Numbered from the stretch's first letter, positions 15,007 to 32,000 are shown. The stretch: DNA of 32,000 nucleotides from a bacterium (GCA_010028705.1 RHAI01000010.1:5506-37505); one strand, 5' to 3'. A program made the numbers and translations. Notes: generated by a model not told the origin, from the sequence alone.

Positions 15007-15433
15007 AATATTGGGCATCATCGATTCGATTGAAGCTACGGTTCTCGACGGGAAAAAAGTGCCGTTTTCGGACAAGGTACTAATGGACGAGAAGCGCCTT
15101 CTCAATTTATTGGATAAATTGAGATATGTGATAAAAAACGATCCCGAATCGATTCGGCGGTCGATCGAGACGGGTACAATGACACCATCGACGCCAGCCC
15201 CGACGCCAGTTGTTATTGAGACTCCAGTGGCGATACATCCGGATGTGTTGCGTCAGGCTGATGACGAAAGTCAACGCCTTCGCAGAAATGCCGACGAATA
15301 TGCGGACAATGTACTCGCCCATCTTCAAATGCTTGTAACTCGCGCGCAAAAGAATTTGATCAAGCTGGAGCAAAGTATTGATTCTGGGAGACAAAATCTT
15401 GAAAACCGTCGCGCTGAAAAGGAGCTAGGATGA
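14999..15433 (+). CDS. DivIVA/ATPase-like coiled-coil protein, the type often found next to coaD
   Basis: N terminus 'IIDSIEATVLDGKKVPFSDKVLMDEKRLLNLLDKLRYVI' resembles the coaD-linked coiled-coil proteins of Clostridia-type genomes. Pro-rich linker, then a helical C-terminal half. Overlaps coaD by 8 nt. Confidence 0.65.
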   Translation: MNEILGIIDSIEATVLDGKKVPFSDKVLMDEKRLLNLLDKLRYVIKNDPESIRRSIETGTMTPSTPAPTPVVIETPVAIHPDVLRQADDESQRLRRNADEYADNVLAHLQMLVTRAQKNLIKLEQSIDSGRQNLENRRAEKELG

Positions 15434-17082: not shown

Positions 17083-17457
17083 TTATGTGGTGGGTCCGGA
17101 GGGTTTCCCACGTTTAGATTTGGCCATTTTATCGAGCTGATATACAAAAGCTAAAACTTCAGCAACCAACGTGTAAAGCTCGGCAGGTATCTCAGAATTG
17201 AGGTCAAGTTTAGCTAGCAAGTCCGTCAGCGTTTCGTCTTCAAAAAACGGAATTCGATTTTCTTCCGCAAGTTCAAGTATTTTTTCAGCGACAGTTGCTT
17301 TGCCCGTAGCGACAATTTTGGGCGCTTTGTCTTTTCCTACCTGATATTTGATTGCAATCGCTTTGAGGTCTTTTTTCTCGGGAAGTTGCAATTCGTCAAG
17401 GTGACGTTTTAATTTGCGAGCTTTTTTATTTAAAAGGGATTGCGGTATTTTTTTCAT
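17083..17457 (-). CDS. FhlB-like protein (FlhB/YscU C-terminal-domain homologue, similar to B. subtilis YlqH)
   Basis: 'AIAIKYQVGKDKAPKIVATGKATVAEKILELAEENRIPFFEDETLTDLLAKLDLNSEIPAELYTLVAEVLAFVY' matches the FlhB cytoplasmic C-domain. There is no TM domain. Confidence 0.85.
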   Translation of the reverse strand: MKKIPQSLLNKKARKLKRHLDELQLPEKKDLKAIAIKYQVGKDKAPKIVATGKATVAEKILELAEENRIPFFEDETLTDLLAKLDLNSEIPAELYTLVAEVLAFVYQLDKMAKSKRGKPSGPTT

Positions 17458-18743
17458 ACTTCGGTATTGATCCTTGATAAGTTATCTAAATTAAGTTTAG
17501 GAAGTATCAAATTGCGGATAGAAATTGGCTTGTCGGAGGTTTGTAACCCAGCGAGTTCATAGTTTTGTACGGATAATTGTTCTTTGAATTCACCAATCCA
17601 TTGTGTGAGCAACATCCGGCTGTCCGTTTTGGATGTGTTGACTTGCATCCAAACCTTTTTATCCAATACATCAAGCGTGATGCACATTTCGCCTAGATCT
17701 TGAGTTTCAAATTTTATTATGACACGGGTTTTCTGTGGGTTGTATTCAGTTTTCTTTTTCAGAGGATCTTTTCGAATTAGTAATTCGATCGATGATTTTC
17801 CGTTCATCCAGGGATTAGGGAATTGCCAGTATCCAAATCGATCAGTGATTCCTGTTTGGGCGATTTGTTCGGACATTATAGCTTGGCTTGTTAACGCTTC
17901 TAGAAATCCGCTAATGTCATGTTGTAATTGCTGAGATGCTTCGAGGATCCGTTTCGCGGAGGGCGAATCGCCATGATCCAGACCAATTTTTTGACGCAAA
18001 CCGCCTAAAAACTCAAGCATCGATTTGAAGTCATTGATTAATTCGGTCCGCGACGCGGGATTCCAGTTCGCCTTTTCCTTCGAAGATTTTGAGAACTTTT
18101 TAAGCGACTCATCTAAATCGCCGAGAATAGATGTCAGCCCTGTGAGTAGCCCTGTGGTAAATAATTCGCTGCTCCAATTCAAGTTTAATTTAAAGTTTGC
18201 CATCGCGTTTTGGAGTTGTTGAAATTGTTGGCTAATTTCAAGCTGGTTGTTAAGAAAATGGCCGATTATATCCACGCTTCTGGGTGCTTCGGCCAGGCCT
18301 TTTGATACACTGACGACCGACGATTCTAGCGAGTTATTTGCTTTTCTGCCCTTTAATAATGTTTGTACTGTCTCAAAATTTTGGGCAGATGCCTCTAAGC
18401 CAAATTGTAATATCGATGACATTATTTGGATGTTTTCCGAGGTGGGGGGATGTTTAATTTGAACAAGTTGATCCACAATGTCGGATCGTGAAATCGGGCG
18501 AGATACCGTCTCTCTGGGTTGTGTTGGGGACGTCGGATCGTTTTTAGTTGTCGGTTTTGATGCCGCCACTTTGGTGGTAGTTTCAACCGATCCAGGGGCT
18601 CCAATATTTTTGTTTATACCCTGAGCTTCCTCGATTGAAAACGTCTTTTTAATGCCCGATGTGTCATCCGCTTTGGTGGTCGGTTTGACCGAAGATTCAA
18701 AGTAACCGCCGCTTCTTCGAGAACTTGATACACCTAAATCCAT
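17454..18743 (-). CDS. FliK-like hook-length-control-type protein (compare B. subtilis YlqG)
   Basis: Overlaps the start of the FhlB-like gene. Low-complexity N terminus. Segment 'VIIKFETQDLGEMCITLDVLDKKVWMQVNTSKTDSRMLLTQWIGEFKEQLSVQNYEL' resembles the FliK C-terminal domain. Confidence 0.6.
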   Translation of the reverse strand: MDLGVSSSRRSGGYFESSVKPTTKADDTSGIKKTFSIEEAQGINKNIGAPGSVETTTKVAASKPTTKNDPTSPTQPRETVSRPISRSDIVDQLVQIKHPPTSENIQIMSSILQFGLEASAQNFETVQTLLKGRKANNSLESSVVSVSKGLAEAPRSVDIIGHFLNNQLEISQQFQQLQNAMANFKLNLNWSSELFTTGLLTGLTSILGDLDESLKKFSKSSKEKANWNPASRTELINDFKSMLEFLGGLRQKIGLDHGDSPSAKRILEASQQLQHDISGFLEALTSQAIMSEQIAQTGITDRFGYWQFPNPWMNGKSSIELLIRKDPLKKKTEYNPQKTRVIIKFETQDLGEMCITLDVLDKKVWMQVNTSKTDSRMLLTQWIGEFKEQLSVQNYELAGLQTSDKPISIRNLILPKLNLDNLSRINTEV

Positions 18744-19758: not shown

Positions 19759-21060
19759 ATGGAGAAAATGATGGTTTTGTCTGAACAAATGTTTCAATCT
19801 GCTCGCCGGATATTAGTCGGTGGGGTAAATAGCCCGGTACGAGCATTTAAGAGTGTGGGTGGAACCCCTGTCTTCTTTAAAGAAGGTTACGGGTCTCGGT
19901 TAGTGTCCGTTGATGATCATGAATTTATTGATTACGTACTCTCGTGGGGGCCAATGATTTTGGGTCACGCATTTCCTCCGGTTGTCGAGTCGATTGTATC
20001 TGCGGTTCACCGAGGCCTGTCGTTTGGAGCTCCGACTGAAGCGGAGACAATTTTGGCCGATTTGATTCACGAATTTTTCCCCTCAATGGAGCGAGTGCGT
20101 TTTGTCAATTCCGGAACCGAAGCCTGTATGAGCGCGATTCGTTTAGCTCGGGGTGTTACGGGGCGCCGCCGAATACTAAAATTCGAAGGGTGTTACCATG
20201 GTCACGCCGATGCGTTATTAGTTAAAGCCGGGTCCGGTGGACTGACTCTTGGGTGTCCGGATAGTGCGGGGGTGTTAAGTGAGTGGGCGCAGTGGACATC
20301 GATCGCGCCTTACAACGATTTGGAGTCGGTTCGTAAGTTGTTTGCGAACGTTGGGGATGATATTGCTGCAATTATTGTGGAGCCAGTTGTTGGAAATATG
20401 GGTGTGGTGCCGCCCAACCCAGGATTCTTACAAGGCCTCCGTGACATCGCGAGTGCTCATGGGACTCTGTTAATTTTTGACGAAGTGATGACCGGATTCC
20501 GAGTCGCGCTGAAAGGGGCCCAACATAAGTATGGGGTAGTGCCAGATATTACGTGTTTAGGAAAGGTGGTTGGGGGTGGATTGCCATGTGCTGCATACGG
20601 TGGCCGGGCCGAATTCATGGAATATTTGGCGCCTGTGGGCCCGGTCTATCAGGCTGGAACGTTATCGGGCAATCCCGTCGCAATGGCAGCGGGCATTTCG
20701 ACGCTTACAGCATTAAAGACGAGTAATCACTTTGAACGAGCGGAATCGCATGCATCACATATTGTTGCCGGGATGCGCCAGTGGATAACGGCTCATGGTT
20801 TGCCGTTGACTGTTAGTCAGGTGGGGACGATGTGGACTCTGTTTTTTTCAGATACGACGGTTTTTAATTTAGCCACTGCACAACGGTCGGATACCAGACG
20901 GTTTTCGCTATATTATCGTGCAATGTTAGACCGGGGCGTTTACCTTGCACCCTCACAATTTGAATCTAATTTCACCTCGTCTGCCCACACGCTCACTGAT
21001 GCGGACTTTTTTATTAGTTCATTTGAGAAGAGTTTGGATTTGGAAATATTCGGGAAATAA
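19759..21060 (+). CDS. hemL: Glutamate-1-semialdehyde 2,1-aminomutase
   Basis: 'GGVNSPVRAFKSVGGTPVF', 'RFVNSGTEACMSAIRLARG', 'KFEGCYHGHADALLVKAGSG', 'LIFDEVMTGFR', 'CLGKVVGGG'. Start may be ATG 19768 or 19771, since GGAG lies at 19761-19764. Confidence 0.95.
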   Translation: MEKMMVLSEQMFQSARRILVGGVNSPVRAFKSVGGTPVFFKEGYGSRLVSVDDHEFIDYVLSWGPMILGHAFPPVVESIVSAVHRGLSFGAPTEAETILADLIHEFFPSMERVRFVNSGTEACMSAIRLARGVTGRRRILKFEGCYHGHADALLVKAGSGGLTLGCPDSAGVLSEWAQWTSIAPYNDLESVRKLFANVGDDIAAIIVEPVVGNMGVVPPNPGFLQGLRDIASAHGTLLIFDEVMTGFRVALKGAQHKYGVVPDITCLGKVVGGGLPCAAYGGRAEFMEYLAPVGPVYQAGTLSGNPVAMAAGISTLTALKTSNHFERAESHASHIVAGMRQWITAHGLPLTVSQVGTMWTLFFSDTTVFNLATAQRSDTRRFSLYYRAMLDRGVYLAPSQFESNFTSSAHTLTDADFFISSFEKSLDLEIFGK

Positions 21061-21092: not shown

Positions 21093-21159
21093 TTGATGCC
21101 TATTTCGATATTGCGCTTGCTCGTTTATAATGAGGCAATCGCGAAGGGAGTTTGAAGTT

Positions 21160-22191
21160 ATGGGTTCTGAAATTAAGGGTAGTTTCAATACCGTTTTGAT
21201 ACTTGCGTGGTCCGTGGGGTTCCTAATCGTGGGTTCTCCATTATTGCTTGCTCAAACGGCGGTTTCGTCTCCTTTGAAGCAATCGCAAGCTGCCGCTGCA
21301 TCATCGCTGAAGAAAGAGGCTCCCCTGACGGATGATGAAATTTTCCAGTTTCAACAAAAATACAAAGACGCCCTGGCCGCCAAACGATTTGACGAGGCCT
21401 TGATTTTGGTCCGTAAGTTGCCTGATTCAAGCCTGTCTCGGCCTCAGCGCAAAGAAATGACATCATTGCTACTGTTTGATTCAGTCGAACAAAAAGTGGC
21501 GAGTTCATCGTCCATGTTTGCCAAAGAAGACGAGTTGGATGATGCGACAAAAAAGATGGTTCAGAAGTTATATAAAGAGGCGGAATCAGCGTTTATTACG
21601 AACCAAACGGAATTGTCCCGTGATATTTTGATTCATATTTTATTCCTGCATCGTCAGAATCTCCGGGCTAAATTTTTGTTAGAAGAAGGGCTTGATTTGA
21701 AAGCAGGGTCATACAAGATTGAAAATATGGAGGCGAAATACTGGAATAAATCCTCTATTAGCTTTTATGGTGGAAATTACCAGCAGTCTGTTGATTGTCT
21801 CCAAGCATTGTCCTTTTTCGACAAGGATAACCCAACTGTTTATGAACGTATGGGCTCGGCGTATTACATGATGGGCGAAAAAGAGCGTGCGATTAGCGCC
21901 TGGAACACGGTGCTTTTCTTGGATCCAGGAAACGCTGAGATTCAAGAGATAATTAAAAAAACTCAAGAGATGATTGCCGAGGATAAGGAAGAAGCTAAGC
22001 GGGACCGAGCCAAGCCAAAGGCGGCGCAAAATGTTAACCTTGCAGATACTCAATTAATGGGGAAGTTTCCGAAGCAGGATCAAGCGTATGAGTTTGCTAA
22101 CTCATTACGTAAGCAAGGGGTCGATGCAATCGTTACGGAAGAAGATGATGGGAAATGGGCCGTTCGGACCCCCAAAAAAGGATCGAAATAG
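21160..22191 (+). CDS. Exported or anchored TPR protein with a C-terminal SPOR-like segment
   Basis: ATG 21160 preceded by GAAGGGAG (21143-21150), better than the ORF-track start at 21130. Signal/TM 'VLILAWSVGFLIVGSPLLLAQT'. TPR-like 'NYQQSVDCLQALSFFDKDNPTVYERMGSAYYMMGEKERAISAWNTVLFLDPGN'. C-terminal 'GKFPKQDQAYEFANSLRKQGVDAIVTEEDDGKWAVRT' has a SPOR-like pattern. Confidence 0.75.
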   Translation: MGSEIKGSFNTVLILAWSVGFLIVGSPLLLAQTAVSSPLKQSQAAAASSLKKEAPLTDDEIFQFQQKYKDALAAKRFDEALILVRKLPDSSLSRPQRKEMTSLLLFDSVEQKVASSSSMFAKEDELDDATKKMVQKLYKEAESAFITNQTELSRDILIHILFLHRQNLRAKFLLEEGLDLKAGSYKIENMEAKYWNKSSISFYGGNYQQSVDCLQALSFFDKDNPTVYERMGSAYYMMGEKERAISAWNTVLFLDPGNAEIQEIIKKTQEMIAEDKEEAKRDRAKPKAAQNVNLADTQLMGKFPKQDQAYEFANSLRKQGVDAIVTEEDDGKWAVRTPKKGSK

Positions 22192-22203
22192 AAAGGGATT
22201 ATT

Positions 22204-23664
22204 ATGCTCAAGTGCTTGTCTCGGTTGTTTGTAGTATTGGTTAGTCTAATTCTTGCAATTCCGATTTTTGCGAGTCCAGACCAAATTGCCATTGAAGAGC
22301 AGTTGGCAACACGCTTACAGAGGTCATTAGATTCTATTTATGGACCGAACAACTTTGTTGTCCGAGTTGATGTTTCGTTGTCGGCCCCGAGTTATCAGGT
22401 TCGTTATACGGCTCAATCGAAAGCCGCTGTTTCTGGCGAGTCAAAGACTTCGGCAAAAGTTAACATTATGCCTGGATATCCGGTGATTAGAAATTTAGGT
22501 CCCGAGACGATGAAACAGCTTCCGTTTGATTCGGTTACTACCTATGCGACTCCGGCGTTGCAATCGATTACTGTGCACCTGCTCATTAACAAGTCTTTCC
22601 CCAAAAGTCAGGCTGGTCGGGCCCAAGCTATTGTCAAAGAACTTCTAAATTGGAAAGATGGTCGCGATAAAATTGAGGTTGCCTATAAGCCGTTTATTGA
22701 TCAAGCGGCACCCGTTCAAAAAATCGAAATCGAAAATCAAGGCGACAAATTGTTTTCGACTCAAAATATTTTCTACATGATTTTCGCCGGTTTGGCACTA
22801 GTTTTTATGATGCTTTATGGGTATTTTTCGGGTCGGACATCGAAGACGCTCAATGCTCTGTCCGTGGCCGGGCCGGCTAGTTCTGGCGGTGGAGGTGGCG
22901 CCGCTCCAAGCGTAACCGTCAGCCCGTCGATTGAGCTTCCCAAGGGTTCCGGAGGTGGTGGCGATATTAAAATTTCGAACGCACCCCCCGTTAAGCAATA
23001 TTTCGATTTTATTAGTGACGATACGTTGGATAAGCTCACCTATCTCTTAAAAAAAGAGAATGTTGGTCCTGATAATCTTAGCCTAATCGTTGGTTTTTTA
23101 CGTCCCGATTTGGCGGCTAAGCTATTGACCCAATTTGATGTGAAGATACAGGCCGCAATTGCCTTGAATATTATCGATCAAAAAATGATTAATCGGGCGG
23201 TACTCGATAAATTAGAATCTCAAATAAAAGGAGCAATCGAGTGTCTGAGCGGTGGCGAATTATCATTCAAATCGATTTATTCAACAGTCTCTAGCTCAAA
23301 TAAAAAACAGCTGTTAGCCCTTCTCGAAAAATCCTCACCCGAAGGATTTAAGAAAGTTCGGAATAATATCGTGCTGTTTGATGATTTAGCAGTTCTTGAT
23401 GACGAAGAAATTAAATTATTGTTATCTGAGGTCCGTGCCGAATTGTTTGCTGTAGCTTTGGCCTCATCGGATCCTAATCTGTACGATCGGTTTGATCGCA
23501 ATATGACCCGAAACGCCAAGGAAGTTATATCCCAGTTTTTAGAGATTCGAGGCGCCAATATTGGTGTTGATGAGATTGAAAAAGCACGCACCAATATTTT
23601 AGATATTGCACTGCGGTTGGAGCGAGACGGACGAGTTCAGATCTCCGCTAAATTGCGGAAGTAA
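22204..23664 (+). CDS. FliF(RBM3)-TM-FliG(M+C) fusion-type rotor protein
   Basis: Signal peptide (aa 1-24). FliF RBM3-like 'IEEQLATRLQRSLDSIYGPNNFVVRVDVSLS' and 'LQSITVHLLINKS...AQAIVKELLNWKDGRDKIEVAYKPF'. TM 'NIFYMIFAGLALVFMMLYGYFSG' (about aa 188-210). Gly-rich linker. FliG-M-like 'NVGPDNLSLIVGFLRPDLAAKLLTQFD'. FliG-C-like 'IVLFDDLAVLDDEEIKLLLSEVRAELFAVALASSDPNLYDRFDRNMTRNAKEVI' and 'EIEKARTNILDIALRLERDGRV'. Confidence 0.82.
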   Translation: MLKCLSRLFVVLVSLILAIPIFASPDQIAIEEQLATRLQRSLDSIYGPNNFVVRVDVSLSAPSYQVRYTAQSKAAVSGESKTSAKVNIMPGYPVIRNLGPETMKQLPFDSVTTYATPALQSITVHLLINKSFPKSQAGRAQAIVKELLNWKDGRDKIEVAYKPFIDQAAPVQKIEIENQGDKLFSTQNIFYMIFAGLALVFMMLYGYFSGRTSKTLNALSVAGPASSGGGGGAAPSVTVSPSIELPKGSGGGGDIKISNAPPVKQYFDFISDDTLDKLTYLLKKENVGPDNLSLIVGFLRPDLAAKLLTQFDVKIQAAIALNIIDQKMINRAVLDKLESQIKGAIECLSGGELSFKSIYSTVSSSNKKQLLALLEKSSPEGFKKVRNNIVLFDDLAVLDDEEIKLLLSEVRAELFAVALASSDPNLYDRFDRNMTRNAKEVISQFLEIRGANIGVDEIEKARTNILDIALRLERDGRVQISAKLRK

Positions 23665-23685
23665 TTTAGAGGAAAGGAGTAGGGC

Positions 23686-24459
23686 ATGATAGGACTGTAT
23701 GTTGGGTTTTTAGTTGTATTATGGATTATGTTTGAGTTAATCGGAGTCGATGCGAACGCCAAGCTGTTTTTGAGTAAAGAAGCCTCGGTTGTCGTTGTGG
23801 GGGGGTTAGTTAGTGCGACGTTAATTAATTTCCCAATTACCCAGGTCAAAAAAATTGGAAGCTGGATGAAGGTCGTATTTAAGGCTCCCAAAAAAGATTT
23901 TTTGGAGGAAATTGCCTTATTGCTTCGCTTATCGCAAAAGATGAGTCGAGAGGGTAGACAATCGTTGGAGCCTGAAATTGAAAAGATAAATGACGGGTTT
24001 TTGAAGGCGGCGATGACTCTAGTCATGAATCGCGTGGAACCCCGTGAAATTAAAAGCTTGCTTAAAGAAATGATTGAACAGTCAGGAAGCCGTCACGAGC
24101 AGGGTATTCATTATTTTGAACAAATGGCCAAGTATTCTCCTGGATTAGCATTGATTGGTACGCTTTCCGGGTTGGTAAAATTATTGGCCAACGTATCTGA
24201 TCCGAAGACAATTGGTCCGAACATGGCTTTGGCACTGGTGTGTACATTTTATGGTGTAACATCGGCTAATTTGATATTTTTACCGATGTCTGGCCGATTA
24301 AAGGTCTCAAGTCACGTTGAAGCGATTCATAAGGAGCAACTTGTTGAGGCGGTTGTCGCAATGGCATCGGATGAACTTCCGATTGTTGTTCAAGAGAAAC
24401 TTTACATGTTGCTAACCTCCAAAGATCGCACCTTGGTAAGTAAAAAGCTAGGAGTTTAA
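23686..24459 (+). CDS. motA: MotA-type flagellar stator protein
   Basis: Strong SD (GAGGAAAGGAG). 'EASVVVVGGLVSATLINFPITQVKK', 'GRQSLEPEIEKINDGFLKAAMTLV', 'YSPGLALIGTLSGLVKLLANVSDPKTIGPNMALALVCTFYGVTSANLIFLPMSGRLK'. Confidence 0.93.
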   Translation: MIGLYVGFLVVLWIMFELIGVDANAKLFLSKEASVVVVGGLVSATLINFPITQVKKIGSWMKVVFKAPKKDFLEEIALLLRLSQKMSREGRQSLEPEIEKINDGFLKAAMTLVMNRVEPREIKSLLKEMIEQSGSRHEQGIHYFEQMAKYSPGLALIGTLSGLVKLLANVSDPKTIGPNMALALVCTFYGVTSANLIFLPMSGRLKVSSHVEAIHKEQLVEAVVAMASDELPIVVQEKLYMLLTSKDRTLVSKKLGV

Positions 24460-24462
24460 TTC

Positions 24463-25209
24463 ATGGGACAGAAATTCCAAACGGAAGTAGAAAATTTTTA
24501 TGTTTCGTTTTCGGACTTGCTGTCTCTTCTATTAATTTTTTTCGTATATCTGTTTTCGATGTCGTCTATTGATTCCGAAAAGTATACCCAGGCGTCAGAG
24601 TCCATTAGCCAGGAGTTTTCAAGCGAGCAAAAAAATAGTGGTAATATGCCCTATAGTATACCAGTTCCCCCGGGGGGGCAGGCGGATAAACGAATGCGGA
24701 GTGCAGAAGGTATACTGGTGTCTAAGTTAAAAGCCCAGATTGAGAGTGAAAAACTTGACGGCCAGGCCAAATTAGAGATTTCCCCCAAGTCTGTTAAGGT
24801 GGTCTTATCCTCCCCGGTGTTGTTTGCGTCCGGGAGTTCCGATCTTAGTGCTGAAGGTGCTGTATTGCTTGGAAAATTTGGTCCCATTATTAAGCAAGTC
24901 TTGAATCCTGTTGTTATTGAAGGATTCACTGATAACGTTCCTATTCACAATAGTCGCTTCGACAGCAACTGGGAGTTGTCGTTTCAACGGACCTTGTCTG
25001 TAATGAGGTATTTTATCGACAAGTTTTCCTTCAGTCCCGAACAATTGTCCGGGACAGGTTTTGGTCAGTATCGCCCTTTAGTACCCAATACTTCGGACGA
25101 AAACCGAGCCCGAAATCGTAGGATTGAAATATCTATAATTAGAGACTATAACCTTCCGGAGATAGCCCCTGATAAGGTCCTTGAAAAGGATCCTCCCAAA
25201 TCTAAATAA
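24463..25209 (+). CDS. motB: MotB-type flagellar stator protein (OmpA-like peptidoglycan-binding domain)
   Basis: SD AGGAG. 'FYVSFSDLLSLLLIFFVYLFSMSS' TM with the ion-binding Asp (D18). PG-binding 'IEGFTDNVPIHNSRFDSNWELSFQRTLSVMRYF...GTGFGQYRPLVPNTSDENRARNRRIEISI'. Confidence 0.94.
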   Translation: MGQKFQTEVENFYVSFSDLLSLLLIFFVYLFSMSSIDSEKYTQASESISQEFSSEQKNSGNMPYSIPVPPGGQADKRMRSAEGILVSKLKAQIESEKLDGQAKLEISPKSVKVVLSSPVLFASGSSDLSAEGAVLLGKFGPIIKQVLNPVVIEGFTDNVPIHNSRFDSNWELSFQRTLSVMRYFIDKFSFSPEQLSGTGFGQYRPLVPNTSDENRARNRRIEISIIRDYNLPEIAPDKVLEKDPPKSK

Positions 25210-26618: not shown

Positions 26619-27596
26619 TTAACTACTTAGTATTCTCAATATATCTCTAGCGGCGTAAGTAATAATTAGGTCGGCGCCGGCACGTTTAAGCGAAATTACG
26701 GATTCCATTATTATGTCGCGATCGTTGGCTAAATTATGTTTAATGGCGAGCTGGAGCATCGAGTATTCTCCTGATACCTGGTAGGCAACAATGGGTGTTT
26801 TTATCTGATCCCGGAGTTCACGTATAATATCAAGGTACATCATACCAGGCTTAACCATGACTAAGTCGGCACCTTCGGAAATATCCTGCACGGTTTCTAG
26901 TATCGCTTCTCGCCGTTGTGTGGGCGCTATTTGGTGGTGCTTTCGGTCGCCTATAAATTGGGTACCCGATCCCGCGGCATCGCGAAACGGACCATATAGT
27001 GAACTTGCATATTTTGCCGAGTAGGCGAGTATTCCAGTGTGATTATGACGGGCGTCGTCCAATGATTGGCGTATCGCCTGGACGGCCCCGTCCATCATGC
27101 CAGATGGTGCAATAAAGTCGGCGCCAGCATTCGCATATGAGAATGCTATTTTTTTCAAGCAATCGAGGGTGGCGTCGTTATCGAGACCTCGGGTGGTTAA
27201 TATTCCGCAATGTCCGTGGTTGGTATACTCGCACAAACAACAATCTGCAAAAATCACGATATTTGGCACCCGTTGTTTAATCCCTTTAATTACTGTTTGG
27301 ACGCCACCCTGCGGATTCCATGCTGAGGTGCCATGCGCGTCTTTTTGCCGAGGAATTCCAAAAATTAATACGCCTCTTAGGCCTGAGCGGTATGCCGTTT
27401 CCACTTCATTAATCGCGATATCGGGCGGGTATTGGAATACTCCAGGCATTGATGGTACTGGGACAGGGGCGGCGATGTCTTCCCGAATAAATAATGGCCA
27501 AATTAGGTCGCTTGGATCGATTCGTGTTTCAGCGAGTAATTCGCGAACGCCGAGGGTTCTGCGGACTGTATGAAATCGTTTAATTTTTTGCTGCAT
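26619..27596 (-). CDS. hemB: Delta-aminolevulinic acid dehydratase (porphobilinogen synthase)
   Basis: 'DLIWPLFIRE', 'MPGVFQYPPD', 'VIFADCCLCEYTNHGHCGI', 'GADFIAPSGMMDGAVQAIRQSLD', 'MVKPGMMYLDIIR', 'PIVAYQVSGEYSML'. Confidence 0.96.
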   Translation of the reverse strand: MQQKIKRFHTVRRTLGVRELLAETRIDPSDLIWPLFIREDIAAPVPVPSMPGVFQYPPDIAINEVETAYRSGLRGVLIFGIPRQKDAHGTSAWNPQGGVQTVIKGIKQRVPNIVIFADCCLCEYTNHGHCGILTTRGLDNDATLDCLKKIAFSYANAGADFIAPSGMMDGAVQAIRQSLDDARHNHTGILAYSAKYASSLYGPFRDAAGSGTQFIGDRKHHQIAPTQRREAILETVQDISEGADLVMVKPGMMYLDIIRELRDQIKTPIVAYQVSGEYSMLQLAIKHNLANDRDIIMESVISLKRAGADLIITYAARDILRILSS

Positions 27597-28314
27597 TTTG
27601 TTTTCTATGGTCGATTATTTTTTTAATGATGTCTCGTTGAGTCGGTGTGTCTGATATCAATTTATTTGAGCATTTCAAATAGCGTAACGTTTGTTGGCCA
27701 ATCGCTAGATGAACTTGTTGAGGGAGGTCCGTTGGAAATTGATTGAAAAAACTTCGAGCAACGGAGCCGCTAAAATGAATGACATAATCATACTCAAGCG
27801 GTGAATTAATCGCAATCGTTAGGGGTAGAGTCGTATAAATTGCGATTGGATATACTGAGCGACATGATCCTAGCCAGTCGGTAGTCGATAGCTCTGAGCG
27901 AGGATGAATCCATAGTTCGGATGTCAGTTCAGTTGAGAAGTCCTCCATGATGGCGGCCGAAGTGGGGGTCGATGGAAATCGTATGTTGTGCGCTGGGTAT
28001 CCCGCGTTCAGAAATGGAGCGGCTGTTTTTGGTCCGATGCATATGATTTTTTTGTCGCATATTTTTTGGTAGATTTCTCGAGTTGCCAATACTATTTCAG
28101 TCGCATAGTGACTCGTAAATATGATTCCGTCAGCACGAGTTAATAGTGCATTGGAAATTGACCGTTCCCATTTCGGTAAGGCGATCGTGGTGATCGCGGG
28201 CACAGCGTCAAAGTGTCCGCCTTCGGATTCAATTCCAATCTGTAACTCCCGTACTGTCGCTATGTCGCGAAGAGCGAGAACTCTGGCGCCTAGTAGAGCG
28301 GGTTGAGTTTCCAT
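27580..28314 (-). CDS. hemD: Uroporphyrinogen-III synthase
   Basis: 'ADGIIFTSHYATEIVL', 'CIGPKTAAPFLNAGYPAHNI', 'YDYVIHFSGSVARSFF'. Sits between hemC and hemB and overlaps both. Confidence 0.85.
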   Translation of the reverse strand: METQPALLGARVLALRDIATVRELQIGIESEGGHFDAVPAITTIALPKWERSISNALLTRADGIIFTSHYATEIVLATREIYQKICDKKIICIGPKTAAPFLNAGYPAHNIRFPSTPTSAAIMEDFSTELTSELWIHPRSELSTTDWLGSCRSVYPIAIYTTLPLTIAINSPLEYDYVIHFSGSVARSFFNQFPTDLPQQVHLAIGQQTLRYLKCSNKLISDTPTQRDIIKKIIDHRKQNAAKN

Positions 28315-29183
28315 TCAGTCGCTTTTTTTACCAGTTCGCTCGCTGCTAAATCGAGGGATGATCCCACATCTTCGATCTCCAATCTTGAAAAATCAGGACT
28401 GGACCGAAATAGTCGAGTACGGGTGGCGTCCCCCTTAATTTCGGTTAGCATTCCTAACGGTAGTTGACAATCAAATCCTACCGTTCGTAAGAAGCTCAGC
28501 TGCAATGATGAAATGGTATATTGATTGGCGTTACTTATAGATTTCGCCAGCTGCCTAAGCTCAGGATCATTTATCCGTGTTTCAAGGCAAATGACACCCT
28601 GGCCTGGCGCTGGGATGAATTGATGTGGCGGTAGAACCGCGTACGTCGTGTCGAGATGCAATCGCATCATACTCACCTCCGATAGCATAATGGCATCGAG
28701 ATGGTGCAATGCATTTAAACGTGTGCCAATATTCCCACGAATATCCCGGGTAATAATATCCGGCCGAATCATTTTCAAAAGGGCTTTCCTGCGCATCGAT
28801 CCGGTCCCCACGGTGGCATTTCTAGGGAGTGTATCGATGGTGTACTGGAAATTAGATACGAGGCAATCACATATCGATTCTGCCGCTAAAAAACCGGTTA
28901 ATTCAAGCGTATCGGCCGTGTTGGCTGTGACATCTTTCAGCGAATGAACCGCAATGTCGATTTTCTTGTCGATGAGAGCGACTTCCAGTTCTCGAATAAA
29001 AACGCCTTTCCCCCCAATTTCAAAGAGCGGCGATTTTTGGTTAATGTCACCGGTAGTCTCGATACCAATAATTTCAGTCGGTTTTTTGGGAAACGTTGCC
29101 CTTATTTTTTCTTCAACGATCTTCGCTTGTGCCATGGCTAAAGGGGATTTGCGTGATCCTATACGAATGGGTTGGAATGTCAT
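28290..29183 (-). CDS. hemC: Hydroxymethylbilane synthase (porphobilinogen deaminase)
   Basis: 'IRIGSRKSPLAMAQAKIV', 'GVFIRELEVALIDKKIDIAVHSLKDV', 'VGTGSMRRKALL', 'DIRGNIGTRLN', 'PAPGQGVICLE', 'FLRTVGFDCQLPLG'. ATG 29183 overlaps the hemA stop (TAATG); the track start at 29213 is inside hemA. Confidence 0.96.
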   Translation of the reverse strand: MTFQPIRIGSRKSPLAMAQAKIVEEKIRATFPKKPTEIIGIETTGDINQKSPLFEIGGKGVFIRELEVALIDKKIDIAVHSLKDVTANTADTLELTGFLAAESICDCLVSNFQYTIDTLPRNATVGTGSMRRKALLKMIRPDIITRDIRGNIGTRLNALHHLDAIMLSEVSMMRLHLDTTYAVLPPHQFIPAPGQGVICLETRINDPELRQLAKSISNANQYTISSLQLSFLRTVGFDCQLPLGMLTEIKGDATRTRLFRSSPDFSRLEIEDVGSSLDLAASELVKKATEWKLNPLY

Positions 29184-30196
29184 TAGTGGTACACCGACCG
29201 ACGGTCGAGCCACAGATGAAATCGGTTCTGTTCCTCAGTTAATATTCCCGTTACTTTAGCTGATTCTTTTTGACGCTTAAGAACATTCTTGTCGGCAATC
29301 GCCTGGAGCCCACCGACTCCAATAATTCGACACGTGGAGGACTCAATTAATGGGTCCACATTACGGGGCACTGCCAGGTCAATAATTAATTCGGTGACGG
29401 CATGCTTTGTAATGTTCCCTTTTGAAAGGATGAAGTCGGATGATCCGGTGGCAACGATTATTATATGGAAGTTGGATGCGACGCTCCGAATCGTATCAAA
29501 TGGAATGACCTGACAATTTGACTCGGTTCCGACACGCATAGCGGTCATGTGAGTTCGGTTAGAGACGTAAAGATTAGGATGTCCAATGGCGGCGAGTTTT
29601 TTAACGGCTCGGTTCCCAATTTTTCCGGTTCCAATGACTATAATTGACTTATCAAAGTAATCGAAAATAGTCTCCCGAATAGCGTCAACGGCGATGGAGC
29701 TCACTGAGTAGGACCCTCTTGAGATTTCGGTTTCGTGCCGTACTCGTTTTCCCGTCGCGATGGCAATTTGAAATACTTTGTTGAGTATTGGCCCCGTTGA
29801 ATTTAACGACGAAAATTGGTGGTAGGCATCTTTGACTTGAGACAATATTTCATCTTCCCCAAACACCATCGATTCTACACCTGCGGCGACATTTAATAAG
29901 TGGCGGAGAACCGCATCGCCTTCAAGGGTATACCCAATAGAACGGAGTGTTGAGTGCGGGATTTCGCCCCATCGACTGATAAAATTGACGATCCACTGGG
30001 TCGCTTCCGAAGTGTTTTGGCTGACGTAATACATTTCAAAACGGTTGCAGGTCGCAAGGATAACAAGCTCATCAATAGGGCTGTCGTGAACTACGTCGTG
30101 TGTAACCGACGGCCAAGATTCTTTGTTGAGATAAATGAGTTCCATCTCTTGAATCGATGTGCGTTTGTAATCTGTTCCAAAAAATCCTAAATTCAT
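29183..30196 (-). CDS. hemA: Glutamyl-tRNA reductase
   Basis: 'LATCNRFEMYYVS' (catalytic Cys), 'HLLNVAAGVESMVFGEDEILSQVKDAY', 'IIVIGTGKIGNRAVKKLAAIG', 'ELIIDLAVPRNVDP'. Confidence 0.94.
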   Translation of the reverse strand: MNLGFFGTDYKRTSIQEMELIYLNKESWPSVTHDVVHDSPIDELVILATCNRFEMYYVSQNTSEATQWIVNFISRWGEIPHSTLRSIGYTLEGDAVLRHLLNVAAGVESMVFGEDEILSQVKDAYHQFSSLNSTGPILNKVFQIAIATGKRVRHETEISRGSYSVSSIAVDAIRETIFDYFDKSIIVIGTGKIGNRAVKKLAAIGHPNLYVSNRTHMTAMRVGTESNCQVIPFDTIRSVASNFHIIIVATGSSDFILSKGNITKHAVTELIIDLAVPRNVDPLIESSTCRIIGVGGLQAIADKNVLKRQKESAKVTGILTEEQNRFHLWLDRRSVYH

Positions 30197-30268: not shown

Positions 30269-31147
30269 TTGAAATATTGGGCGGTTTTCGTTAGTATCCT
30301 CCCCGTGACGCGACCAAAATTTTCAATCCAAACGATTAGTTCGACCCCCATTCCATCCGTTGTCACGGTGTTTCTTTTTTTTGTGATGTTTGTAATTTTG
30401 CTCTCTGGGGAATCATTCGCTGTGTTCAATGAAAATTACCAAGAGTTTCAAGATCCATCGATCCGAACCGTGGTTCAGAGCATGCGTGCTACTCAGATCC
30501 ATTATAACAACGCGTTATTATACACCATGAATGTCGACACGCCCGGTTATATTGAGATCGGTGGATACAACTCCCTCGACCGTGACGGAGTCATCCAAAT
30601 GATCCCGTTTTATCGATGGCGGGCGGGGCCTGTAGTCGAAACGTTGCGCCCACTCGATTTTTATATCGATGCGGTAGGCAAAGGTTTTTTTCAGGTGTCG
30701 TTGCCGACCGGATTGGGCTTTACTCGCGATGGTCGATTTACGTTGGATTCTCGGCGAAAATTAGTTATGTTAGCGGGAAATTTCCCGGTGTTGGGTGAAC
30801 GAGGAGAAATTTTTTTGCCGGAGGGGGACGAGATTGCCGTATCTAAAACCGGCTTGATTTTTGTGGATGGGGCACCCGTTGACAGAATGAAGGTCGTTGT
30901 TTTCACCGAAAAAGGGATCAATCAATTGGACACAGTGAACGGTAGCATTTTTATTTTAAGTGGCGAGGGAGAATTGAACTCGGCCGCCGATTATTCTGTT
31001 CGGCAGGGCTTTATCGAACAGAATAACATTATAAAGGCCTTAATTGGGGATATTTCCTCGGCAAAAAACACCTATGAAGCTTCGGCGAAAGCTGGGAAAG
31101 CGATTATTAAAGAGATGAATTCAGCCATCCAATTGGGTGCGCCTTAG
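30269..31147 (+). CDS. FlgF/FlgG-family basal-body rod-like protein with an N-terminal hydrophobic/signal segment (start uncertain)
   Basis: 'SMRATQIHYNNALLYTMNVDTPGYIE' is a diverged rod N-terminal motif. 'DFYIDAVGKGFFQVSLPTGLGFTRDGRFTLDSRRKLVMLAGNFPVLG' is the FlgG/FlgF core. C-terminal 'GFIEQNNIIKALIGDI'. The real start may be the downstream GTG of 'VFLFFVMFVILLSGESFA'. Confidence 0.75.
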   Translation: MKYWAVFVSILPVTRPKFSIQTISSTPIPSVVTVFLFFVMFVILLSGESFAVFNENYQEFQDPSIRTVVQSMRATQIHYNNALLYTMNVDTPGYIEIGGYNSLDRDGVIQMIPFYRWRAGPVVETLRPLDFYIDAVGKGFFQVSLPTGLGFTRDGRFTLDSRRKLVMLAGNFPVLGERGEIFLPEGDEIAVSKTGLIFVDGAPVDRMKVVVFTEKGINQLDTVNGSIFILSGEGELNSAADYSVRQGFIEQNNIIKALIGDISSAKNTYEASAKAGKAIIKEMNSAIQLGAP

Positions 31148-31196
31148 GTTGACATTGAACATACGGATATCGTCTGAAATTACAGGAGGTTAATTA

Positions 31197-32000
31197 ATGA
31201 TTTCACAATTATTTATGGCAAAAAGTGCTTTGATCGCATACCAGCGGAAAATGCAGGTAGTCGTTAATAATATTTCAAACGCTCAAACGGTTGGCTACAA
31301 ACGTCGGTCAGTTGAAATGGAAAGTTTGTTCCCCTTAGTGTTTGAATCGGTAATTAATGATGGCGACGAGAGTACGGCAGGGACATCGCGAAGCCGGAAG
31401 CGTTACCTCGAGTATGGACAAGGTGTGCGGGTGGCGGACATTCGGAAGGATATGAGTCCCGGAAGTATTGAAGTGACCAATCAAGATCTTGATATGGCGA
31501 TTGATGGGGCGGGCTTGTTCCAGCTTCGGTTGAGTGATGGAACTGTAGCTTACGGCCGTGCCGGCAATTTTCATGCTGATCCGGATGGGAATGTAGTGGA
31601 TCCAAATGGTAACCCTCTTGAGCCGAATCTGAAATTGCCCCGGGAGTATTCGGATGTCATTATCAATGAAGAAGGGAAGGTGTTTGTTCAGAGTAATGGC
31701 GATCCAAATCCGAGAGAAATTGGTCAGGTGACCCTTGCAATTTTCCCAAATCCGGCGGGCTTGAAAGATATCGGTCAAAATCTATATGTTCAAACCGCTG
31801 CTTCGGGAGACCCTAGTTTTCAAATTCCTGGACGCGGATTGGCGGGGTCGTTACGGCAACGTGCACTCGAATTTTCGAATGTGAATGTGATTGAAGAGAT
31901 GATGAATATGGTGTTAACCCAGCGCGCGTTTGATTTGACGATTAAGTCAATTAACTCTGGCGATCAAATGTTGAAGAGCGGTAGTGATTTGGGTAAATAG
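31197..32000 (+). CDS. flgG: Flagellar basal-body rod protein, FlgG-like
   Basis: SD AGGAGG at 31184-31189. 'MISQLFMAKSALIAYQRKMQVVVNNISNAQTVGYKRRSVEMESL', 'DLDMAIDGAGLFQLRLSDGTVAYGRAGNFHADPDGNVVDPNGNPL', C-terminal 'LEFSNVNVIEEMMNMVLTQRAFDLTIKSINSGDQML'. Stop TAG at 31998-32000. Confidence 0.88.
   Translation: MISQLFMAKSALIAYQRKMQVVVNNISNAQTVGYKRRSVEMESLFPLVFESVINDGDESTAGTSRSRKRYLEYGQGVRVADIRKDMSPGSIEVTNQDLDMAIDGAGLFQLRLSDGTVAYGRAGNFHADPDGNVVDPNGNPLEPNLKLPREYSDVIINEEGKVFVQSNGDPNPREIGQVTLAIFPNPAGLKDIGQNLYVQTAASGDPSFQIPGRGLAGSLRQRALEFSNVNVIEEMMNMVLTQRAFDLTIKSINSGDQMLKSGSDLGK

What the first reader, a model, noticed from the sequence alone, without database searches (positions are those of the whole stretch)
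21160..25209. Four-gene rotor/stator cassette: TPR-SPOR, FliF/FliG hybrid, MotA, MotB
The genes are co-directional with gaps of 12, 21 and 3 nt, and the last three have clear SD sites (AAAGGGA, GAGGAAAGGAG, AGGAG). The unit holds both halves of an ion-driven rotary motor: a membrane ring/torque protein and a MotA/MotB stator. It also has an exported TPR/SPOR-like protein that could tie it to peptidoglycan. In ordinary flagellar loci fliF and fliG sit with fliE/fliH/fliI, not as a fusion with motAB. The unit could be a stripped-down main motor, or a second motor driving something other than a flagellum (envelope transport, gliding, cell-surface rotation). The 'second motor' idea is inference. 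FhlB/FliK-like and FlgF/FlgG-like genes lie nearby, so a flagellar role is also fully possible.
Basis: partly seen in the sequence, partly recalled or inferred. Interest (0 to 1): 0.8.

Follow-up and report, generated by a model that had tools for sequence, protein, structure and literature searches.

The report
Membrane-anchored FliF/FliG rotor protein with stator
Next to an ordinary MotA/MotB ion-driven stator, this uncultured Margulisbacteria genome encodes a protein that joins a ring-building piece of the flagellar membrane ring (FliF) to the torque-receiving part of FliG, probably a new way of building the flagellar rotor.

Summary
The four co-directional genes exist as described, with gaps of 12, 21 and 3 nt and the stated SD sites.

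- **Gene 1** is an exported TPR protein. A SPOR domain is not confirmed.
- **Gene 2** is signal peptide, FliF-RBM3-like ring-building domain, TM helix, Gly-rich linker, then FliG middle and C-terminal domains.
- **Genes 3 and 4** are a flagellar-type MotA and MotB (plug, Asp18, OmpA domain).

The window is from Margulisbacteria. The order hemL–TPR–hybrid is kept in all 12 distinct loci examined, and motAB follows in 7. A canonical fliF is present in relatives. The gene after fliF is a 214–271-aa FliG remnant with no FliG_C in 5 of 5 loci.

I therefore read the cassette as the torque module of the flagellar motor, with FliG's torque domain tethered to its own membrane ring (confidence about 0.55). 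No whole genome could be checked for a full-length FliG.

The architecture is widespread: about 200 clusters at 50% identity. This includes a distant clade with TPR-outer-membrane protein, hybrid, (FlbD), MotA and MotB, and no core flagellar genes nearby. An autonomous second motor is therefore not excluded.

The closest precedent is the Chlamydiaceae FliF–FliG(M) fusion. I rate it a new variant of a known kind.

The parts
21160..22191 (+). Exported TPR protein (343 aa from ATG 21160; alternative ATG at 21130). It has an N-terminal signal-like hydrophobic segment, a helical region, a two-TPR unit (about res 200-275), a charged coil, and a conserved C-terminal alpha/beta module of about 45 aa and unknown fold.
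   Evidence: Pfam TPR_2/TPR_11. Family alignment A5 of 14 orthologues, always directly upstream of the hybrid. No SPOR hit. Fused to the hybrid in about 890-aa proteins P0254/P0282.
22204..23664 (+). FliF(RBM3)-TM-FliG(MC) hybrid protein, 486 aa
   Evidence: Pfam FliG_M and FliG_C. AF2 models. Foldseek matches to FliG and to FliF RBM3. 35 close clusters and about 200 clusters at 50% identity.
22204..22275 (+). Signal peptide / N-terminal hydrophobic segment (res 1-24, ...IPIFA|S)
   Evidence: Read from the sequence and a hydrophobicity scan. Cleavage is inferred.
22276..22698 (+). Periplasmic ring-building domain like FliF RBM3 (res 25-165), alpha-beta-beta-[insertion]-beta-beta-alpha-beta. 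The 40-residue insertion (res 69-109) carries invariant N87, P90, G91, P93, P107, S110 and T112. It sits at the position of the FliF beta-collar.
   Evidence: Foldseek top 18 hits are all FliF RBM3/S-ring (E about 1e-7, prob 1.0), followed by SpoIIIAG and PrgK. PF08345 YscJ_FliF_C hits in family members P0031, P0033, P0231, P0236 and P0290. Invariant columns.
22759..22848 (+). Transmembrane helix (res about 186-215)
   Evidence: AF2 helix 186-219. Hydrophobicity scan across the family.
22849..22986 (+). Gly-rich, predicted disordered cytoplasmic linker (res about 216-261)
   Evidence: pLDDT below 50 for 217-261. Alignment A1.
22987..23661 (+). FliG middle and C-terminal domains (res 262-486), with a Gly-Gly hinge (G350, G351), an [LI]F-D-D motif (F392, D394), and a torque helix without the canonical charges (N-M-T-R-N-A-K-E-V-I-S-Q444-F)
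   Evidence: Profile match to T. maritima FliG-MC 1lkv/3ajc, E 1e-28. FliG_C TMt 0.85-0.94 to 1qc7 and 0.84 to 8ucs_H. Residue mapping.
23686..24459 (+). MotA, flagellar-type stator A subunit (257 aa)
   Evidence: PF01618. Full-length alignment to C. sporogenes MotA 6ysf/8ucs, E 3e-40, including the cytoplasmic loop. Best NCBIfam hits are MotP/MotA/PomA, all below cut-off.
24463..25209 (+). MotB (248 aa): TM helix with Asp18, plug, OmpA-type peptidoglycan-binding domain
   Evidence: PF13677 and PF00691. Alignment to C. sporogenes MotB 6ysf_A, E 5e-36, with the Asp conserved.
17083..18743 (-). Context: FliK-like gene (17454-18743) and a FlhB C-terminal-domain-only gene (17083-17457)
   Evidence: Pfam Flg_hook and Bac_export_2; TIGR00789. 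The same pair lies directly after motAB in L008.
30269..32000 (+). Context: FlgF-like (30269-31147) and FlgG (31197-window end). In relatives these continue into flgA-flgH-flgI-fliA-...-fliE-fliF-short fliG.

Best explanation
The cassette is the torque-generating module of a Margulisbacteria flagellar motor in which FliG has been taken apart.

Shown:
- Gene 2 joins a FliF-RBM3-like periplasmic ring-building domain and one TM helix, through a flexible linker, to FliG's middle and C-terminal domains.
- MotA and MotB are flagellar-type stator subunits.
- Relatives have a normal FliF, followed by a FliG remnant without FliG_C.

Inferred:
- The hybrid oligomerises through its RBM3-like domain into, or around, the FliF MS-ring.
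- This places a ring of FliG_C domains under the membrane.
- MotA pentamers, powered by ion flow past MotB Asp18 and anchored to peptidoglycan by the OmpA domain, push on the hybrid's torque helix.
- The short FliG, bound to the FliF C-terminal tail, links the two rings.
- The exported TPR protein is the hybrid's periplasmic partner or scaffold.
For: - **Domain architecture:**
- **Lineage:** Margulisbacteria.
- **Canonical FliF present:** it has PF01514 and a C-terminal FliG-binding-like helix. It occurs in the same MAG or contig as the hybrid: the EBR96 MAG (P0007 and P0051), the L008/L009 contig, the L017 contig, and the KT_bin-0310 contig of 168,390 nt.
- **fliG position:** it holds a 214-271-aa protein with half a FliG_N and one ARM-like repeat, and no FliG_C, in 5/5 distinct loci.
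- **No other FliG_C:** in six-frame translations of all Margulis loci, the only FliG_MC-like sequences are the hybrids.
- **Contiguity with flagellar genes:** in L008, L016 and L017 the cassette runs on into fliK-flhBc-flgFG...fliE-fliF on one strand.
- **Genomes without adjacent motAB still carry FliF:** hybrid MSR88790.1 and FliF MSR89100.1 are probably from the same EXS67 MAG, inferred from their close accession numbers only.
- **Conserved torque helix:** it is nearly invariant across the family, including Q444.
- **Co-variation:** MotA R90 is S/T/Q where the hybrid has Q-F/Y at 288-289. It is R/K where the hybrid keeps an acidic residue at 289 (E-E or Q-E); L026 (K with Q-M) is an exception.
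- **TPR partnership:** the TPR gene is always directly upstream, often overlapping by 4 nt, and is fused to the hybrid in P0254/P0282.
- **FlbD:** a flagellar stator-operon protein precedes motAB in the distant clade.
Against: - No complete genome could be scanned, so a full-length FliG or a second motAB elsewhere is not excluded.
- All five canonical torque-helix charges (Ec K264, R281, D288, D289, R297) are replaced in Margulis hybrids, and the EHPQR motif is degenerate.
- motAB adjacency is lost in 5 of 12 loci, while hemL linkage is universal.
- 61 distant-clade loci have no core flagellar gene within 10 kb and often sit by giant ORFs and outer-membrane TPR proteins.
- A fusion with an SLH wall-binding domain fits poorly with a rotating ring.
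- The short FliG is very degenerate, and its link to the hybrid is conjecture.
- The co-variation rests on few independent events.
Confidence: 0.55

Rival explanations
1. Accessory flagellar ring. A normal full-length FliG exists elsewhere in the genome. The hybrid forms an additional membrane-anchored ring at the flagellar base, for example an outer torque ring, a stator docking or parking ring, or a brake. With the TPR protein it recruits or regulates MotAB.
For: The non-canonical torque helix and degenerate EHPQR motif. Its own ring-building domain. A TPR partner, by analogy with the periplasmic TPR stator scaffolds PflA/PflB and FlcA (own knowledge). The SLH-TPR fusion suggests a wall-fixed structure. 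A PilZ gene lies near one distant locus.
Against: In 5/5 loci the fliG position holds a FliG without a C domain. No other FliG_C was found in any Margulis locus examined. The co-variation with MotA R90 points to a working torque interface, not just docking.
Confidence: 0.2
2. Autonomous second rotary motor. TPR protein, hybrid ring and MotAB form a self-contained envelope machine that is not part of the flagellum. It drives something else, such as surface adhesin movement, gliding or envelope transport. The neighbouring flagellar genes in Margulisbacteria would then be coincidental synteny.
For: The hybrid has all it needs to form its own membrane ring carrying FliG_C. The TPR-hybrid-MotAB module is conserved across very distant lineages. 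No FliF, FlgG, FlgH, FlgI, FliE or FlhB homologue was detected in 61 distant-clade loci. Those loci lie next to giant ORFs (up to 16,931 aa), TPR/outer-membrane-barrel proteins and T9SS-CTD proteins. In Margulisbacteria the conserved linkage is to hemL and rho, not to flagellar genes.
Against: The stators are flagellar-type, with a full cytoplasmic torque interface. FlbD precedes motAB in the distant clade. motAB operons often lie apart from other flagellar genes anyway. Margulis flagellar clusters lack any other FliG_C. The Margulis groups traced to a genome or contig (EBR96, L008/L009, L017, KT_bin-0310, probably EXS67) also encode FliF.
Confidence: 0.15
3. A non-motor MotAB-like system, such as Zorya-type phage defence or a Tol/Exb-type energiser, that happens to carry a FliG-like gene.
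For: MotB matches ZorB models through general MotB homology.
Against: There is no ZorA, ZorC or ZorD match, and MotA is 257 aa without a ZorA tail. MotA aligns end to end with flagellar MotA, and MotB has the plug.
Confidence: 0.02

Closest known systems
Chlamydiaceae FliF-FliG fusion protein (about 330 aa; Bergeron 2016, PeerJ, PMC4768692)
   Same: A natural single polypeptide with a signal/TM segment, RBM-type periplasmic domains, a TM helix and a cytoplasmic FliG-like domain. It replaces the non-covalent contact between the FliF tail and FliG_N.
   Different: The chlamydial protein has an RBM2-like domain plus one further RBM, and only a FliG-M-like region. It occurs in a non-flagellate with no MotAB. 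Here the periplasmic domain is RBM3-like, both FliG_M and FliG_C are present, a stator operon follows, and a canonical FliF coexists in relatives. Direct sequence comparison with the chlamydial protein was not done.
Canonical FliF MS-ring / FliG C-ring junction, and engineered or spontaneous FliF-FliG fusions (Vibrio fusion structures 8z4d/8z4g, PMC11481574; Salmonella fusion mutants, own knowledge)
   Same: The same two folds are joined in the same order: RBM3, TM, then FliG. The FliG_C fold is that which contacts MotA.
   Different: RBM1 and RBM2, the FliF C-terminal peptide and FliG_N are all missing. The five charged torque residues are replaced. The protein is a separate gene next to motAB, in addition to fliF and a short fliG.
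MotAB / MotPS / PomAB flagellar stators (for example C. sporogenes 6YSF and the MotAB-FliG_C complex 8UCS)
   Same: Full-length homology of both subunits, with the MotB plug, the channel Asp and the OmpA domain, the MotA cytoplasmic interface and an E98 equivalent.
   Different: The MotA R90 equivalent is Ser. Scores are below every NCBIfam equivalog cut-off. A second, 32%-identical MotA type sits at the same position in L008 and L016.
Periplasmic TPR stator scaffolds (Campylobacter PflA/PflB, Borrelia collar protein FlcA); comparison from own knowledge
   Same: An exported TPR protein genetically tied to the stator/rotor module.
   Different: No sequence relationship was tested. Here the TPR protein is tied to the hybrid (always adjacent, sometimes fused) rather than to MotB.
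SpoIIIAG and SctJ/PrgK ring-building-motif proteins
   Same: An RBM fold with an insertion between strands. SpoIIIAG (5wc3) and PrgK (2y9j) are the next-best fold matches.
   Different: They score much lower than FliF RBM3, and they have no FliG fusion.

Membership tests
FliG (flagellar motor switch protein) | N-terminal domain (FliG_N) that binds the FliF C-terminal peptide | tested here: not met
   There is no FliG_N hit. The N-terminal half is signal peptide, RBM3-like domain and TM helix.
FliG (flagellar motor switch protein) | Middle domain (ARM_M, PF14841) | tested here: met
   PF14841 at 26.9 bits (cut-off 25), res 280-344. Aligned to T. maritima FliG-MC.
FliG (flagellar motor switch protein) | EHPQR FliM-binding motif in FliG_M | tested here: not met
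   Only the Glu (E285) is invariant. His is replaced by Asn, there is a 2-residue insertion, and the Arg is not conserved.
FliG (flagellar motor switch protein) | Gly-Gly hinge and MFxF-type motif before FliG_C | tested here: met
   G350 and G351 are invariant; F392 and D394 are invariant within (L/I)F-D-D.
FliG (flagellar motor switch protein) | C-terminal domain fold with a torque helix | tested here: met
   PF01706 at E 1.3e-18. TMt 0.85-0.94 to 1qc7 and 0.84 to 8ucs_H.
FliG (flagellar motor switch protein) | Conserved charged residues K264, R281, D288, D289 and R297 (E. coli numbering) | tested here: not met
   They are replaced by A, N, Q, F and G in the window, and by similar uncharged residues across Margulis hybrids. 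The distant clade keeps a basic residue at 264 and an acidic one at 288/289.
FliG (flagellar motor switch protein) | NCBIfam equivalog score (TIGR00207) | tested here: not met
   70.8 bits against a cut-off of 226.7.
FliF (MS-ring protein) | RBM1-RBM2 (PF01514 YscJ_FliF) | tested here: not met
   No PF01514 hit. The canonical FliF of relatives has it.
FliF (MS-ring protein) | RBM3 / S-ring domain followed by a TM helix | tested here: met
   Foldseek top hits are FliF RBM3, E about 1e-7. PF08345 in relatives, down to E 2.7e-11. TM helix at 186-219. The full beta-collar is replaced by a 40-residue conserved insertion.
FliF (MS-ring protein) | C-terminal peptide that binds FliG_N | tested here: not met
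   It is absent. The linker leads straight into FliG_M.
MotA (flagellar stator A subunit) | MotA_ExbB channel domain plus the large cytoplasmic torque-generating interface | tested here: met
   PF01618 at E 8e-24. Residues 2-253 align to C. sporogenes MotA 10-258.
MotA (flagellar stator A subunit) | Charged residues R90 and E98 (E. coli numbering) | tested here: inconclusive
   The R90 position is Ser, with Arg one residue later. The E98 position is Glu.
MotB (flagellar stator B subunit) | TM helix with the conserved Asp, a plug, and an OmpA-type peptidoglycan-binding domain | tested here: met
   PF13677 and PF00691. Asp18 aligns with the Asp of C. sporogenes MotB.
SPOR domain (PF05036) | Sequence match to the SPOR profile in the C-terminus of gene 1 | tested here: not met
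   No SPOR hit at E up to 0.1. A family profile search against the PDB finds only TPR proteins. The fold of the conserved C-terminal module was not modelled.
Zorya anti-phage system | ZorA with a long cytoplasmic tail, plus ZorC/ZorD or other partners | tested here: not met
   Only generic ZorB/MotB matches. No ZorA, ZorC or ZorD.
Chlamydiaceae FliF-FliG fusion | About 330 aa, RBM2-like domain plus an RBM, TM helix, FliG-M-like tail, no stator genes (PMC4768692) | not tested
The architectures differ as described in the paper.

The most novel reading that the evidence does not exclude
TPR protein, RBM3-TM-FliG_MC ring and MotAB form a free-standing, flagellum-derived rotary engine. It would be present in Margulisbacteria and in a large clade of T9SS-bearing bacteria. 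It would turn (or walk stators around) its own membrane ring to drive a non-flagellar envelope process, for example movement of the giant surface proteins encoded next to it in the distant clade.
Probability: 0.15. Interest if true: 0.95.

Novelty: new variant of a known kind. Interest (0 to 1): 0.72.

Why it matters
All characterised flagellar motors attach the torque ring non-covalently: FliG_N grips the FliF tail. In this phylum FliG appears to have been split. Its torque-receiving half has its own signal peptide, its own MS-ring-type ring-building domain and its own TM anchor, and its gene sits with the stator genes.

If correct, this has three consequences.
- It gives a natural experiment on MS-ring/C-ring stoichiometry and on how FliG_C must be positioned relative to MotA.
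- It shows a torque interface that works without the textbook charge pairs.
- It defines a sizeable unannotated protein family (about 200 clusters at 50% identity) that current annotation calls 'hypothetical' or 'FliG C-terminal domain-containing protein'.

If instead the module is autonomous, it would be the first FliG/MotAB rotary motor outside the flagellum.

Tried and rejected
- **SPOR domain in gene 1:** no Pfam or PDB-profile support.
- **Zorya or other defence system:** rejected with PADLOC.
- **Sigma-28-type promoter upstream of the cassette:** the pattern search is at chance, and only weak CGATA-like elements are seen by eye. No claim is made.
- **Sigma-70 promoter and terminator scans:** at or below the shuffle expectation.
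- **Profile-profile comparison of short FliG with the hybrid:** not significant.
- **Direct HMM match of the hybrid's RBM domain to Margulis FliF:** only weak (E 0.03-0.3), although consistently placed in the RBM3 region.
- **Literature:** searches for Margulisbacteria flagella, natural FliF-FliG fusions, and membrane-anchored or split FliG found nothing on this family except the Chlamydia fusion.
- **First genome scan:** the 25-sequence alignment failed for lack of a conserved stretch. It was repeated with 11 sequences.
- **Whole-genome absence of a canonical FliG:** could not be tested with the available look-ups.


Full report
**Observation.** The four ORFs exist on the + strand at 21130/21160-22191, 22204-23664, 23686-24459 and 24463-25209. 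The gaps are 12, 21 and 3 nt. The SD-like sequences AAAGGGA, GAGGAAAGGAG and AGGAG lie before the last three starts, and AAGGGAG lies before the ATG at 21160. Consensus promoter and terminator scans of the region are at or below the shuffle expectation. A single transcript is therefore compatible with the sequence but not shown.

**Surroundings in the window.** Most neighbours are housekeeping genes: hemL directly upstream, and rho, hemB, hemD, hemC and hemA downstream on the other strand. Flagellar genes lie 2-5 kb away on both sides. These are a FlhB-C-terminal-only gene and a FliK-like gene at 17083-18743 (-), and FlgF-like and FlgG genes from 30269.

**Gene identities.**
- **Gene 1** has only TPR hits. 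It has a signal-like N-terminus. Its C-terminal module of about 45 aa is conserved in 14 orthologues, but it matches neither the Pfam SPOR profile nor anything non-TPR in the PDB. 'SPOR-like' is therefore unverified.
- **Gene 3** aligns end to end with C. sporogenes MotA (6ysf/8ucs, E 3e-40), including the cytoplasmic torque interface.
- **Gene 4** has the MotB plug, the channel Asp (D18) and an OmpA domain.
- Both stator subunits score best against MotP/MotS, MotA/MotB and PomA models, but below every NCBIfam equivalog cut-off. PADLOC finds only generic ZorB/MotB similarity and no ZorA, so a Zorya-type system is rejected.

**The hybrid (gene 2).**
- **FliG half:** Pfam sees FliG_M (res 280-344) and FliG_C (res 374-480). 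A family profile matches T. maritima FliG-MC at E about 1e-28.
- **Overall AF2 model (pLDDT 71):** a signal-like helix, a periplasmic alpha-beta-beta-[loop]-beta-beta-alpha-beta domain, a TM helix (186-219), a disordered Gly-rich linker (217-261), then the FliG helices.
- **FliF half:** the N-terminal domain modelled alone gives FliF RBM3/S-ring/collar structures as its 18 best Foldseek matches (E about 1e-7, probability 1.0). SpoIIIAG and PrgK follow.
- **Full model:** it matches FliG first and FliF RBM3 second. FliG_C superposes on 1qc7 at TMt 0.85-0.94 and on the stator-bound FliG_C of 8ucs at 0.84.
- **Sequence support for the FliF link:** several relatives carry a Pfam PF08345 (YscJ_FliF_C) hit in the same region, down to E 2.7e-11 in P0231.
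- **The insertion:** a 40-residue loop at the topological position of the FliF beta-collar is modelled with low confidence. It nevertheless contains most of the invariant residues of the domain (N87, P90, G91, P93, P107, S110, T112).

More precisely, it is the C-terminal half of FliF (RBM3 and TM2) joined to FliG-MC, without the FliF tail and without FliG_N.

**Departures from canonical FliG.** The remembered sequence reproduces K264, R281, D288, D289 and R297 at the right numbers.
- All five conserved torque-helix charges are replaced, by A, N, Q, F and G in the window. The replacements are similar across all Margulis members.
- The helix is nonetheless almost invariant within the family (N433, A438, Q444, L446).
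- The EHPQR motif is reduced to its Glu.
- The Gly-Gly hinge and the MFxF-type motif are kept.

**Lineage and linkage.** The protein is 100% identical to a hypothetical protein of an uncultured 'bacterium' MAG. Named relatives are Candidatus Margulisbacteria/Margulisiibacteriota, UBP8_UBA817 and Marinamargulisbacteria. I examined 12 distinct loci by neighbourhood look-ups and local BLAST.
- hemL-TPR-hybrid is present in every locus. The TPR stop overlaps the hybrid start in several.
- motAB follows directly in 7 loci, including the most divergent one (L023, 34% identity).
- rho follows directly in 4 loci.
- In L017, 0.8 kb of non-coding DNA replaces motAB.
- Two MotA types occupy the slot. The L008/L016 type is only 32% identical to the window's MotA.

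**Relation to the flagellum.**
- **Contiguity:** in L008/L009 the cassette continues on the same strand into fliK, flhB-C, flgF, flgG, flgA, flgH, flgI, fliA, flgC-like, fliE, fliF and a 214-aa ORF.
- **Canonical FliF:** the FliF (about 505-540 aa) has PF01514, and its C-terminus aligns weakly with the FliG-binding helix of Salmonella FliF.
- **The short FliG:** the ORF after fliF was seen in five distinct Margulisbacteria loci (L009, L010, L011, L012, L025) and is 214-271 aa. It has the first about 65 residues of FliG_N, an acidic/Gly linker, one ARM-like repeat with a 'QKPQLIAFILS' motif resembling the start of FliG_M, and an acidic tail ending F-x-F. It has no FliG_C. In three of the five loci a convergent lnt gene follows immediately, so the shortness is real.
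- **No other FliG_C:** an HMM of the hybrid's FliG-MC region, searched against six-frame translations of all Margulis loci, finds only the hybrids.
- **Co-occurrence:** hybrid and FliF occur in the same MAG or contig in the EBR96 MAG, the L008/L009 contig, L017 and KT_bin-0310. A MAG whose hybrid lacks adjacent motAB (EXS67; hybrid MSR88790.1) probably also has a FliF (MSR89100.1), judged from the close accession numbers.

The flagellar clusters of this phylum thus appear to lack a torque domain, and the hybrid is the only candidate seen to supply one.

**Interface co-variation.** E. coli MotA R90 contacts FliG D288/D289, and E98 contacts R281 (as stated in PMC12505986).
- In window-type Margulis MotAs the R90 position is S, T or Q, and their hybrids have Q-F/Y at 288-289.
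- In all 19 MotAs of a distant clade the position is R or K. Their hybrids keep a basic residue at 264 and usually an acidic residue at 289 (E-E or Q-E), with one exception, L026.
- This is what a direct hybrid-MotA torque interface predicts. It rests on only a few independent evolutionary events.

**The wider family.** An exhaustive profile search of 1.84 billion representatives finds 203 proteins at E up to 1e-30. Nearly all complete proteins among the best 150 have the same layout: signal, RBM3-like domain, TM helix, linker, FliG-MC. The variants are informative.
- Proteins of about 890 aa, in a cluster that includes Margulisbacteria GWD2_39_127, fuse an SLH-TPR part related to gene 1 to the hybrid. 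This fusion supports a physical TPR-hybrid partnership.
- Others carry a Glucodextran_B domain, or a C-terminal TPR.
- Others have only a TM anchor before FliG-MC.

**The distant clade.** Two look-ups and 61 metagenome loci show a conserved order: TPR/outer-membrane-barrel protein, hybrid, sometimes an unknown protein of 770-1620 aa, then a 71-80-aa ORF, MotA, MotB and often a second MotB.
- The small ORF is FlbD in L031, the one locus scanned with Pfam (PF06289, E 6e-22). FlbD is a flagellar stator-operon protein.
- A T9SS C-terminal sorting domain protein nearby suggests hosts related to the Bacteroidota group.
- No FliF, FlgG, FlgH, FlgI, FliE or FlhB homologue was detected in these loci.
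- Several loci adjoin giant ORFs, one of 16,931 aa.
- Host taxonomy and flagellation could not be determined.

**Interpretation.** The best-supported reading (about 0.55) is that the cassette is the torque module of the flagellar motor in a lineage that has split FliG. The hybrid would form or join a membrane ring through its RBM3-like domain and present FliG_C to MotA. The short FliG on the FliF tail and the exported TPR protein would be its partners. The domain architecture, the stator identity, the truncated fliG and the linkage patterns are shown. Ring formation, contact with FliF and the short FliG, and rotation are inferred.

Two rivals remain.
- **Accessory ring (about 0.2):** the hybrid is an extra ring alongside an undetected canonical FliG.
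- **Autonomous motor (about 0.15):** the module is not flagellar. This is favoured by the distant-clade context and the universal hemL linkage. It is disfavoured by FlbD, by the flagellar-type stators, and by the missing FliG_C in the flagellar clusters.

The SLH-TPR fusion is hard to reconcile with a freely rotating ring and is left unexplained.

**Comparison with known systems.** The nearest precedent is the Chlamydiaceae FliF of about 330 aa, described as a FliF-FliG fusion with an RBM2-like domain, a further RBM, a TM helix and a FliG-M-like tail (PMC4768692). That protein lacks FliG_C and has no stator. Engineered or spontaneous FliF-FliG fusions are known to form rings (PMC11481574; PDB 8z4d appeared among the hits). 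I found no paper describing the family studied here. I classify it as a new variant of a known kind. Interest is fairly high because it bears on how the torque ring is attached and positioned, and because the family is large and unannotated.

Noticed in passing
window 17083-18743 (-): A 124-aa protein consisting only of the FlhB C-terminal domain (TIGR00789 flhB_rel) overlaps by 4 nt the end of a 429-aa FliK-like gene. The same pair is conserved throughout Margulisbacteria flagellar clusters.
   Followed up: partly
L009:12287-12931, L010:8215-8976, L011:11623-12270, L012:11521-12204, L025:11521-12336: The gene after fliF is a 214-271-aa FliG remnant: half a FliG_N, an acidic/Gly linker, one ARM-like repeat with 'QKPQLIAFILS', and an acidic tail ending in a conserved F-x-F. 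It has no FliG_C.
   Followed up: yes
L017:9640-10590: In a close relative of L008, motAB between the hybrid and fliK is replaced by about 0.8 kb of non-coding DNA with no detectable MotA or MotB remnant.
   Followed up: partly
L008:11517-12287 and L016:2715-3485: The MotA next to the hybrid in these genomes is only about 32% identical to the window's MotA. It lacks both the R90 and E98 equivalents ('AQKTTKQALV'). The stator gene at this position may have been replaced.
   Followed up: partly
L001:12280-13410, L014:12259-14079: MotB orthologues in close relatives carry long C-terminal extensions (376 and 606 aa, against 248 aa in the window).
   Followed up: no
L027:1-8090 (gene continues beyond the locus): A called gene of 16,931 residues with no Pfam hit lies just upstream of the TPR-OMP/hybrid/MotAB module in a distant-clade genome. 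ORFs of 2,100-2,700+ aa occupy the same position in L031, L032, L057, L068 and L079.
   Followed up: partly
L026, L031, L043, L078, L081 and others: Two MotB genes in tandem follow MotA in many distant-clade loci.
   Followed up: no
P0254, P0282 (about 890 aa): Single polypeptides join an SLH-like segment and the TPR unit of gene 1 to the RBM3-TM-FliG_MC protein. P0261, P0264 and P0259 instead carry a Glucodextran_B domain.
   Followed up: partly
P0022/P0083 and L023: Margulisbacteria-type hybrid and FliF proteins are deposited under the names 'Thermoproteota archaeon' and 'uncultured Rickettsiales bacterium'. These are probably binning or labelling errors.
   Followed up: no
window 10926-11873 (+) and 14999-15433 (+): Two ORFs (315 and 144 aa) inside a co-directional housekeeping gene row have no Pfam or NCBIfam hit. 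The 144-aa ORF is conserved at the same position in L001.
   Followed up: no
window 19759-21060 and 26619-30196: The heme-biosynthesis genes hemL, hemB, hemD, hemC and hemA flank the cassette. The hemL-TPR-hybrid order is conserved across the whole phylum, with hemL and the TPR gene overlapping in some genomes.
   Followed up: partly
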